Origin: Bugula neritina
Taxonomy: Eukaryota > Animalia > Bryozoa
Length of the DNA: 64,000 bases
Reading direction: 5' to 3'
Assembly (NCBI GenBank): GCA_964035545.1
Contig: OZ037769.1
Span: 1,426,001 to 1,490,000 of the forward strand
Positions 44,501-47,500 of the stretch are shown here, piece after piece. The position numbers and the translations under genes were made by a program. The stretch's first letter is position 1. Each line of letters opens with the position of its first letter. Below the pieces are notes generated by a model. The model saw only the letters and a list, made by a program, of their open reading frames with translations. It did not search any database and had not been told where the DNA came from.

Positions 44501-47500
44501 GTAAGAGAAGGTCCTATCTACATGTAGAGTACGTGCCACCATAACGGTAGGGAATGCCACAGAGAGGTAGGGGAAGAGTAGTATGGAGTTGGAGATAGAC
44601 TCAAGTTAACTGCGGGCCGCACGCTTCATGCGTTTAATAGACTCCTGTAAATATTTGAGTTCACTGGATGCAGCCTGCACCCGTGGGGCCAGTCTGTACA
44701 CTTCTTGCTCCAAGTCGTGTGCCCTAGCTTCTACTTCACGTAGGTTGCGGGCCCAGGGGGACGAGCGAGAGGAAGTCGGCTGTCTGTGTCTTTTCCGCTC
44801 TGAGGATGGGAGGGGAGGAGGGAGTGTATACGCATTTGTGTCTACCCTCTGTAGTACGACACGAGGAAAAGTATGCGGCATGCGTAGAGGACTGTGAGGT
44901 GGAGAGTTAGTAGACTGTGTAAGTTTATCTGCGGCTCCAGAGATAATGGGTCGCGGGGAAGGGAAACCTTGCTCCAGGCGAGATAGCCGAGCTGAGTCAG
45001 TGATGAGTGGTTTGATGGCGTTGAGAAAGGCAGGATAGGATGATTCGTCTACTTCATAGACATGCCCTTGATAACACTGCATAGTACGTTGGTGCCGCAG
45101 TAGGTAATCACGATTGTAGCTATATTCTCCGCAAGGGCAGAAAGTGGTGATGTAGTGTTGCGGCAAGTGCACTTTCAGTCTGCGGTGGGTTGTGAATCGC
45201 TGCTGGCAGAGGTTGCATTCACGATTACTCTCACCTCCTTGATGGGTCCTAATCTCTCTCTCTGTGGCAGGGGTAATCCAGTTGGAGGTTGCTTCCAACT
45301 GGGGTGGCAGTTGCCTAGTTGTAGAAGTTGTTGGGGCCGGCTCGGGGTCCCACGCCATCTCTAGAGAAGGCATGCCCGGAGAGACGGGCGCTAGTGTGTC
45401 TACAAAAGTAGAATTATTGTTAGATCGCGGTGGATCTTTACAACATAATTCTAGTGACTGTCGACCGTTGCTAGCCTGAGAGTCACAGCTTTTGGAATGC
45501 ACTCGAGGAACCGATGAATCATGTGTGGACTGACCAAGAACAGTGTCTAGCTCCAGGTCTAACAGACCGTCGGCCATTACAGTATCTTCATCGTCATTCA
45601 CATGAAACGTGGTTCCCAGTAATTCTGATTCAATCTGCTGAATTAGTTCAGAATTTACTGGCATCGAGCCCGTTTCCATGAATAGGAATACAAGACTTAT
45701 ACTGGCTTACCTGGGAACTCGGTATTAATGTCCATACTCAACGTTCTTGGTAAGATTGGAGCTGGTTGTGAGATACGTCTGCCTTTGGCGATGTCAGCAT
45801 AAGAAAAGGCTGAGCATCGTTTCTGAGGCACGAGGTCGGAACTATTTGCTTTACGCGCATTAATTCCTCCCACTATTCCGCCCTCGCAAAAGTTGATATT
45901 TGCGTGGGGTTCACAACTCCAACATTTTATCGTACGGTTCTCCCCTAGACTTTCATGTGCGCCGCTTCTAATGCAGTCACATACGAAGTCTTTTAAATAT
46001 GGTGGGGGTTTCCTCGTACGCTGTCCCCTTTCTAGGGGGGGTGACACGCTTGCCGGTTCGTTAGTAGGGGCCTCTAATGGCGTCTCTACTTCACCGTTAG
46101 CAGTCACCTCTTCTTGTTCTCCGAATGGAGCCCCTCCCTCCGTGGGGGTTTGCACTTCCGGAACTGGCTCGGTTTCTGGAAGTGATGGAATTAGACTTGG
46201 CGGTGGCGGACACGCTTCTGTTGACAAAAGCTGCCGCTCCTCTCTCACCAAGTTTTCTTCCCGCGGTATGACCACTTCGTATTCAGGTCCATGCCGCCGT
46301 GGCCCGCGCGTCGTTGTCTGCCTCCTGGGCTCTAACAACGGGGGGGGGGGGGGGGCTTCTCCCACTCCGTCGGGGCTAGCCCAATACGGTTTCAAGCGAG
46401 ACTCATTCTGGATAGACACCTGTCCTGAGCGCTCGATCTTGTACGTATGATTGGGCATAGCCTCGACGACCACGTAGGGGCCTACGAACTTAGGCTTCAG
46501 TTTATCAGCCTGTCCGCGACGCCTACGGTAATTGACCATCCACACCTTATCTCCCGTTTGATAGAGAGGTGGTTCATCGGAATCTTCATGCCGCACCTTC
46601 CACTGCTGTTGGCGCAGTATATCGTGTGCGGCCTTCATCCGTTCCACTAGTTCACTGGCATACTCGTGAACCGAGTTGTCTTGCTCTGGAACGTGATAGG
46701 TGAGATGGTCAGGGACACGAGTCTCTCTCCCGAGCATCAAGAGGTTTGGGGTCTCACCAGTACTGGTGTGTGGGGTGCTACGGTATGCACGCATGACCTG
46801 CGGCAACACCGTATCCCATTCCTCTTGACCTCGTCCAAGGAGGAGACTCCGGAGTGCATCACCTAGCATCCGGTTGTTGCATTCCACCACCCCGTTACCT
46901 TGAGGGTGGTAGGGGGTGGTCCTGCTCTGATTTACTCCCCAGAGGTGGCAGAGGTCGCTCATCAGTTGAGACTGGAATTGAGCGCCTTGATCAGAGTGTA
47001 TCTGTCCGGGAAGCCCAAAATAACAGAATACATGTTGGTCTAGTGCCCTGGCCACTGTTGGGGCTGATGCATCTGGGATGGCCAGAGCATCCGCCCACCG
47101 AGTAAAGTGGTCGGTTAGTACTAGGATCCAATTATTGCCTCTGGGGGTCAGGGGCATGGGTCCGACCAGGTCTACAGCGACTACTTGCCAGGGCCTACCA
47201 GCATATAGCCTCCGCCTTCCTGCTTCACCAGGGGGGCGGCTATGCTTACTGGCCTGGCAGATCTCACACTGTTTGACTCTGAGCCGGACGTCACGCTCCA
47301 TTTGTGGCCAATACCACCGGAGTCGTAATTTGGATATCACTCTCTTGACCCCTGCGTGGGCCTGTTTGTGAGTATCCCAAATCAACTCACGGCGGATGGC
47401 CGTGGGGCAGACTACCCTCTTCCTTTCTGGGTGTCTGCCGCTGGCAGCTAGAGAGATGGTTAGCAACCCATCCTGCCCGATCCGCAGCGAGTCCCAACGC

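What the first reader, a model, noticed from the sequence alone, without database searches (positions are those of the whole stretch)
44606..45679. Gypsy element with a zinc-finger/coiled-coil third ORF in the env position: candidate element-encoded regulator
Seen: an intact 357-aa ORF starts 17 nt after the pol stop, inside the LTRs and on the element strand. It has an acidic N-terminus, a canonical C2H2 finger plus a second CxC..H..C finger, a basic patch (ERKRHR) and a C-terminal coiled coil, and it lacks any signal peptide or TM helix. Known: third ORFs of Gypsy-group errantiviruses are normally envelope glycoproteins. Inference: the acidic region + Zn fingers + possible NLS + dimerisation helix resembles a transcription factor, so this may be a 'complex' retrotransposon encoding its own transactivator, anti-silencing factor or integration-targeting factor. 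The ORF is intact although pol carries lesions.
Basis: partly seen in the sequence, partly recalled or inferred. Interest (0 to 1): 0.8.

Follow-up and report, generated by a model that had tools for sequence, protein, structure and literature searches.

The report
Retrotransposon zinc-finger module, fused or free
A young jumping gene in an animal genome carries an intact third gene for a protein with a conserved two-zinc-finger domain, and many related elements carry the same domain fused to the end of their polymerase-integrase protein; it likely binds nucleic acid in the nucleus and likely regulates the element itself.

Summary
A 357-aa ORF (45679-44606, minus strand) starts 17 nt after the pol stop, inside 306-bp LTRs that differ at one base. 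It is not env. It is also not a one-off capture. Its core is a conserved ~120-aa domain with two zinc fingers (predicted pLDDT ~97) that has no specific Pfam family. The same domain is fused in frame behind integrase in 27 of the 120 closest RT relatives, which were chosen by RT alone (27 of 76 close ones with a whole integrase; 0 of 18 more distant ones). Its divergence tracks that of RT. The acidic helix and the C-terminal coiled-coil-like stretch recur in both forms. In the window's family it is a separate gene: 39 homologs start at the same Met. So ORF3 is the free form of a clade-wide Pol C-terminal module. Function is untested. A nuclear, nucleic-acid-binding regulator of the element is most likely (0.45); integration tether (0.25) and RNA export or chaperone (0.2) remain open. 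Ten literature searches found no description, but Repbase and GyDB could not be checked. Verdict: new variant of a known kind.

The parts
51182..51487 (-). 5' LTR, 306 bp, TG..CA
   Evidence: 1 mismatch to the 3' LTR
51437..51458 (-). perfect inverted repeat in the LTR (10-bp arms, 2-nt spacer); copy in the 3' LTR at 44284-44305; candidate binding site or RNA hairpin, untested
   Evidence: 4 of 500 dinucleotide shuffles reach an arm of 10
51163..51177 (-). primer binding site (tRNA-Leu assignment is recalled, not tested)
50282..51148 (-). gag; no CCHC knuckle in any frame
50327..50333 (-). slippery-type heptamer near the gag end, likely gag-pol -1 frameshift site (inferred)
49977..50381 (-). 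pol N-terminal segment; ends at a frame break near a G run
   Evidence: like N-termini of P0226, P0233, P0239 by eye
49555..50037 (-). aspartic protease segment; ends in an in-frame stop
45697..49554 (-). RT, RNase H, integrase and a ~240-aa low-complexity tail
44606..45679 (-). ORF3, 357 aa (P0001)
45530..45679 (-). acidic N-terminus (aa 1-50) with predicted amphipathic helix 10-21
44960..45319 (-). conserved two-finger domain (aa 121-240): finger 1 at 45217-45155, finger 2 at 45139-45074
44783..44800 (-). basic patch (aa 294-299), possible nuclear localisation signal (inferred)
44612..44758 (-). predicted long helix with heptad pattern (aa 308-356)
44335..44345 (-). polypurine tract
44029..44334 (-). 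3' LTR
44025..44028 (.). target site duplication ATAT (other copy 51488-51491)

Best explanation
ORF3 is the free-standing form of a two-zinc-finger module that many related Gypsy elements carry fused behind integrase, and it likely works as a nuclear, nucleic-acid-binding regulator of the element itself. Shown: the ORF, its conservation, and the in-frame fusion in relatives. Predicted: one compact domain in which two fingers sit on a shared core with a basic face, and a long C-terminal helix. Inferred: the protein is made apart from integrase (from its own ATG here; from an internal ATG or by protease cleavage in fused families), enters the nucleus, may oligomerise through the helix, binds the element's own DNA, possibly the LTR inverted repeat, and uses its acidic helix to recruit host transcription machinery or hold off silencing.
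For: Fusion behind integrase in 27 of 120 RT-selected relatives, domain E 1e-33 to 4e-7. Domain and RT distances correlate over 28 elements (rho 0.53, 0 of 2000 permutations), so the module is long inherited with the element. Zinc ligands C155, C158, H171, H175, C181, C183, H196 are 90-100% conserved in 115 sequences down to ~20% identity. Domain net charge is positive in 114 of 128, with R/K at finger-1 helix positions +2, +3, +5. Residues ~151-201 overlay on tandem DNA-binding fingers, weakly (ZNF217 3uk3, Z 3.6, rmsd 2.8, 51 aligned). An acidic amphipathic motif precedes the domain in 15 of 27 fused linkers (3.9 expected) and 37 of 63 free proteins (10.6 expected); a coiled-coil-like stretch follows in 14 of 25 fused (1.2 expected) and 61 of 94 free (3 shuffled). 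A Met lies within 12 residues upstream of the acidic motif in 6 of 12 fused linkers (2.1 expected, p 0.01). 39 homologs begin at the ORF3 Met, 3 extend upstream. The LTR has a perfect 10-bp inverted repeat (4 of 500 shuffles).
Against: No binding, localisation or transcription data exist. The structural overlay is at Z under 4, which a generic finger pair gives; position +6 of finger 1, a usual base contact (established knowledge), is mostly V/I/L (92 of 128), so binding need not be sequence-specific. In-frame fusion to integrase in 27 families fits a tether equally well. The motif tests use rules I wrote after seeing examples, and related sequences are not independent. 49 of 76 close relatives with a whole integrase show no fused domain, and their DNA could not be read for a separate ORF3. 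The basic-patch count (75 of 94) had no shuffle control. The LTR repeat could as well be an RNA hairpin, and its conservation was not tested.
Confidence: 0.45

Rival explanations
1. The module is an integration-targeting tether, working like the chromodomain of chromoviruses: it binds a DNA or chromatin feature and steers the integrase, in cis when fused and in trans when split.
For: In frame behind integrase in 27 of 76 close relatives with a whole integrase; three close homologs run from a pol-tail-like stretch into ORF3 (P0064, P0112, P0149) and P0186 joins tail and ORF3 directly. Chromodomains sit at the same end of integrase (PMC2774666, passages).
Against: The window's family has it split with a shared start Met (39 homologs) and is young and multi-copy. 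The linker is 213-651 aa and low in complexity. A conserved acidic helix and a nearby Met fit a separate product. Only one insertion site could be read.
Confidence: 0.25
2. The module is an RNA-binding factor: it exports unspliced genomic RNA as CERV does for Cer1, or stands in for nucleocapsid.
For: Basic domain; the window's gag has no CCHC knuckle; donor-like splice sites exist in LTR, gag and just before ORF3; CERV has a leucine zipper, NLS and cysteine finger (PMC10309623, abstract and passages).
Against: The sister element P0287 keeps a CCHC knuckle (whether it has ORF3 is unknown). The finger pair overlays on DNA-binding proteins, weakly. No similarity to CERV was seen in any search, though CERV was not compared directly.
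Confidence: 0.2
3. The module is a passenger, a captured host fragment of no use to the element.
For: Single-copy-depth joints that skip ORF3 exist in run X1 (44369-45948, 44372-46370, 44369-46337). Named homologs include annotated bryozoan genes. Some long Pol tails end in a helix but lack the domain.
Against: Ligands conserved across 115 sequences; co-divergence with RT; 8 of 8 indel rows at 5% share or more fall in the 3' UTR, none in ORF3 or the junction (the UTR has homopolymer runs that favour indels); 10 of 19 listed ORF3 differences are synonymous against 6.0 expected (p 0.045; a small, tool-selected subset).
Confidence: 0.05

Closest known systems
Chromoviruses (Ty3/Gypsy elements with a chromodomain at the integrase C-terminus; PMC2774666, passages read)
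   Same: An extra reader-like domain appended to the C-terminus of integrase across a clade.
   Different: Here the domain is a two-finger zinc module with acidic helix and coiled coil, 213-651 aa behind integrase, and it also occurs as a separate gene; no chromodomain hit.
CERV of C. elegans Cer1 (PMC10309623, abstract and passages read)
   Same: Non-env accessory protein of a Gypsy-type element with zipper, basic NLS-like patch and cysteine finger.
   Different: CERV comes from a spliced mRNA sharing gag's N-terminus, has a C4-type loop and a G-protein-like domain; ORF3 has a C2H2 plus CxC..H finger pair and is Pol-fused in relatives.
Non-env ORF3s of bdelloid rotifer LTR retrotransposons (GDSL esterase, DEDDy exonuclease; PMC5408684, passages read)
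   Same: A third ORF after pol that is not env.
   Different: Those are captured enzymes; 'zinc' and 'finger' do not occur in that paper's main text.
Errantivirus env (PMC13524379, passages read)
   Same: Position after pol.
   Different: No hydrophobic segment or signal; bryozoan errantiviruses are reported with gB-type env in GAG-ENV-POL order; 'zinc' does not occur in the main text.
Ginger1 transposases with OTU, Ulp1 or PHD domains behind a Gypsy-like integrase (PMC2836005, passages read)
   Same: Extra C-terminal domains on a Gypsy-like integrase.
   Different: DNA transposons; different domains.
Tandem C2H2 DNA-binding fingers (ZNF217, Kaiso, CTCF)
   Same: Finger 1 spacing; weak overlay of the finger pair (Z 3.0-3.6).
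   Different: No canonical linker, atypical finger 2, and conserved flanking core (W134, T139, V210, D211) predicted to make one compact domain.

Membership tests
Ty3/Gypsy LTR retrotransposon | LTRs with TG..CA, target duplication, PBS and PPT | tested here: met
Ty3/Gypsy LTR retrotransposon | domain order PR-RT-RH-INT | tested here: met
Named Gypsy clade (GyDB, MolGy, PolGy) | RT/RNase H groups with reference elements | not testable with these tools
   no reference set on hand; tree holds only search hits
Errantivirus / env-bearing Gypsy | third ORF with signal peptide and transmembrane anchor | tested here: not met
   highest 19-residue hydropathy 0.58; 3 of 150 homologs exceed 1.6
Errantivirus / env-bearing Gypsy | F-type or gB-type fusion protein fold | tested here: inconclusive
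   no match at E<=0.001 in pdb or viral libraries; predicted fold is a zinc domain plus one helix
Chromovirus | chromodomain at the integrase C-terminus | tested here: not met
   no Pfam chromo hit in window pol or in 13 of 13 relatives scanned
Classical C2H2 transcription factor | Pfam zf-C2H2 at gathering score | tested here: not met
   15.7 bits against 25.2
Classical C2H2 transcription factor | sequence-specific DNA binding and transactivation | not testable with these tools
   needs bench work
CERV-like RNA export factor | spliced mRNA joined to gag N-terminus | tested here: inconclusive
   no joint in the one RNA run, which is shallow contigs
CERV-like RNA export factor | M and G domains of CERV | not tested
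   CERV sequence was not fetched; described from PMC10309623 passages only

The most novel reading that the evidence does not exclude
A whole, so far undescribed clade of marine-invertebrate Gypsy elements encodes its own zinc-finger transcription regulator, a retrotransposon counterpart of the transactivators of complex retroviruses, which switches between a Pol-fused and a free gene, binds a palindrome in its own LTR, and has been domesticated as host genes in bryozoans.
Probability: 0.2. Interest if true: 0.82.

Novelty: new variant of a known kind. Interest (0 to 1): 0.6.

Why it matters
Extra domains behind integrase and extra ORFs after pol are usually treated as two separate things. Here one conserved module occurs in both states within a clade, which gives a natural comparison for asking whether such modules act in cis on integrase or in trans on the element. 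The domain is common in public data (213 clusters at 50% identity match ORF3, a few of them generic finger proteins) yet has no specific Pfam family, so it is a ready marker for a clade and a candidate new nucleic-acid-binding domain. Annotated Watersipora genes with one or two copies suggest possible domestication.

Tried and rejected
No own genome was held, so no genome-wide copy survey or dN/dS. Locus scans with ORF3 alignment A1 found no relative in metagenome, viral or prokaryote contigs; integrase or RT queries gave none in viral contigs (26, 95), two loci in metagenomes (31), one irrelevant bacterial locus (45) and six distant Gypsy loci (99), none of which holds the domain. L001 (RT 55%) has a finger pair after pol that scores only weakly (profile E 0.02-0.08, hhalign probability 41%): not counted. 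Foldseek gave nothing at E<=0.001; the wide VIA search returned only coiled coils at Z about 5.5 and did not test the core; the single-sequence model of the core failed (pLDDT 38), so a new fold is not claimed. The two-copy complex job gave no answer (score 0.20, mark 0.32). ESM Atlas gave only generic C2H2 or unnamed clusters. The RNA run X2 has contigs over ORF3 at depth 2-5 and no joint, but contigs cannot show transcription or strand. A frameshift from pol into ORF3 was rejected: the open overlap is 10 nt and holds no slippery heptamer. No Rfam hit. The first tree run timed out and was redone with FastTree. The domain tree is too weakly supported to say whether fused or free is ancestral. 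Ten paper searches found no description of this module; supplements were not opened, and Repbase and GyDB are not searchable here, so an entry there is not excluded.

Full report
The element. The finding lies in a complete Ty3/Gypsy element on the minus strand, 51487 to 44029. Its LTRs are 306 bp, differ at one base, end TG..CA and are flanked by ATAT, so the insertion is young. A primer binding site and a polypurine tract are in place; that the primer is tRNA-Leu is recalled. Pfam gives PR-RT-RH-INT. Pol has two breaks: a frame break near a G run at about 49985-49977 and an in-frame stop at 49557-49555. In run X1 the summed contig depth is 26,000-38,000 over ORF3, 36,000-40,000 over gag and about 250 in the flanks. 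The tool warns that this is no copy number, but it shows a multi-copy family in which ORF3 is about as well represented as gag. The host is an animal with introns; the only named homologs of the domain among 30 clusters looked up are from the bryozoans Bugula neritina and Watersipora subatra (one further named hit was a generic sturgeon finger protein), so a bryozoan host is a guess.

The ORF. It has no hydrophobic segment (maximum 0.58), so it is not env. A word search found 59 homologs among 2109 candidates; the exhaustive search found 213 cluster representatives at E<=0.001, of which 150 were listed. In an alignment of 115 of them, C181 is invariant and C155, C158, H171, H175, C183, H196, V210 and D211 are at least 90% conserved; W134 and T139 are kept in 97 and 99 of 115. 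AlphaFold2 predicts residues 121-240 as one confident domain (pLDDT about 97) and 308-356 as one long helix, the rest mostly disordered. Pfam has only sub-threshold generic C2H2 hits. Foldseek found nothing at E<=0.001. Residues about 151-201 overlay weakly on tandem DNA-binding fingers (best Z 3.6, rmsd 2.8, 51 residues). The core alone could not be searched with a good model, so I do not claim a new fold.

The result that changes the reading. I searched for relatives with the RT/RNase H region alone and took the 120 best listed. A profile of the ORF3 core hits 27 of them, in frame behind integrase, at domain E 1e-33 to 4e-7. Of 102 relatives at 60% RT identity or more, 76 have a whole integrase and 27 of these carry the domain; 0 of 18 below 60% do. 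Several fused proteins stand for 10-25 cluster members, so they are not single assembly accidents. The domain lies 213-651 aa behind integrase and 34-347 aa before the C-terminus; the window's pol tail plus ORF3 gives about 360 and 112, collinear with the fused form. Fused members are spread over both main branches of the RT tree (all 120 rows plus the window, rooted on a distant hit). Domain and RT distances correlate (rho 0.53, 0 of 2000 permutations, 28 elements; nearest neighbours agree in 17 of 28). Pfam finds nothing in the extensions of 13 relatives scanned. For the 49 close relatives without a fused domain no DNA was available, so I cannot say whether they have a free ORF3.

Is the split real? 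39 homologs align from residue 1 and start at the same Met; 3 extend upstream with a stretch like the window's pol tail. The starts are gene-caller choices, which is a caveat. In run X1 all 8 of 8 indel rows at 5% share or more lie in the 3' UTR, none in ORF3 or at the junction, and a contig of X6 with 31 differences in 207 nt crosses the junction without a gap. So the split is a family trait, not a lesion of this copy. A few joints at single-copy depth skip ORF3, which fits deletion derivatives. Of 19 ORF3 differences that the tool listed (of many more not shown), 10 are synonymous against 6.0 expected (p 0.045): in line with selection, but thin.

Architecture is kept in both states. Among free homologs with a full domain, 75 of 80 have a net acidic N-terminal part, 61 of 94 a coiled-coil-like tail (3 after shuffling) and 3 of 150 a hydrophobic segment. 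Among fused ones, 15 of 27 linkers hold an acidic amphipathic motif (3.9 expected) and 14 of 25 tails a coiled-coil-like stretch (1.2 expected). With a stricter motif, 6 of 12 have a Met within 12 residues upstream (2.1 expected, p 0.01), as ORF3 does. These scores are my own rules, set after seeing examples, and the sequences are related. The domain is basic in 114 of 128, with R or K on the finger-1 helix but a hydrophobic residue at +6. The LTR holds a perfect 10-bp inverted repeat (4 of 500 shuffles), which could be a site for a dimer or an RNA hairpin.

Mechanism. I commit to a nuclear, nucleic-acid-binding regulator of the element, made apart from integrase (0.45). The acidic helix, the nearby Met in fused forms, the long loose linker and the survival of a young split family point that way. 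The fusion keeps an integration tether open (0.25), and the missing gag knuckle and the CERV precedent keep an RNA role open (0.2). A passenger is unlikely (0.05). None of these was tested directly.

Comparison. The element is a Ty3/Gypsy member by structure; its named clade could not be tested. It is not an errantivirus-type env carrier and not a chromovirus by the tests above. Non-env third ORFs (PMC5408684, passages), a regulatory accessory protein (CERV; PMC10309623, abstract and passages), chromodomains on integrase (PMC2774666, passages) and extra domains on Ginger1 transposases (PMC2836005, passages) are known. Surveys of mollusc and annelid LTR elements (PMC6238403, PMC8556966) and of metazoan errantiviruses (PMC13524379) do not contain the word 'zinc' in their main text (passages only, supplements not opened). 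PMC13228809 and PMC6101501 (passages) were not relevant. Ten searches found no description of this module; Repbase and GyDB were out of reach.

Verdict. Observation confirmed; interpretation partly supported and redirected. New variant of a known kind; interest 0.6.

Noticed in passing
P0061/P0202 (XP_067940964.1, XP_067940963.1), P0139 (XP_067944745.1), P0086: Watersipora subatra gene models with isoforms carry one or two copies of the domain, and an unnamed protein has two copies: possible domestication. Their loci were not read.
   Followed up: partly
P0186 against window 45908-45661 (-): A close relative joins the pol tail directly and in frame to ORF3 just after its second Met, skipping about 250 nt: deletion or splice, source unknown.
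   Followed up: partly
window 50400-50340 (-): Gag has no CCHC knuckle where sister element P0287 has one; an RNA-run contig with 6 differences in 368 nt covers the stretch.
   Followed up: partly
window 45713-45705, 51334, 51108 (-): Strong donor-like splice motifs lie just before ORF3, in the LTR and early in gag; no good acceptor in front of ORF3 by a simple scan.
   Followed up: partly
window 45336-45483: A stretch of ORF3's predicted disordered N-terminal part is more conserved than its neighbours in protein and is the part of ORF3 best covered by diverged families in runs X5 and X6: possible overlapping DNA or RNA signal.
   Followed up: no
P0226, P0239, P0261, P0268, P0301: Pol tails that end in a charged helix-like stretch but lack the finger domain, including the 80%-identical P0226.
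   Followed up: no
L001:4542-4967 (+): A more distant Gypsy element (RT 55%) has a separate frame after pol with a similar finger pair, only weakly matching the profile.
   Followed up: partly
window 39149-39891, 43463-43696, 51675-51863 (+): Exon-like frames of a host gene with an F5/8 type C (galactose-binding) match flank the element, which seems to sit antisense in an intron; a 130-nt repeat at 51690, 53740 and 57883 may be repeated exons.
   Followed up: partly
L004:948-8108 (+): A single 2387-aa gag-pol frame with a long C-terminal part, no match to this domain.
   Followed up: no
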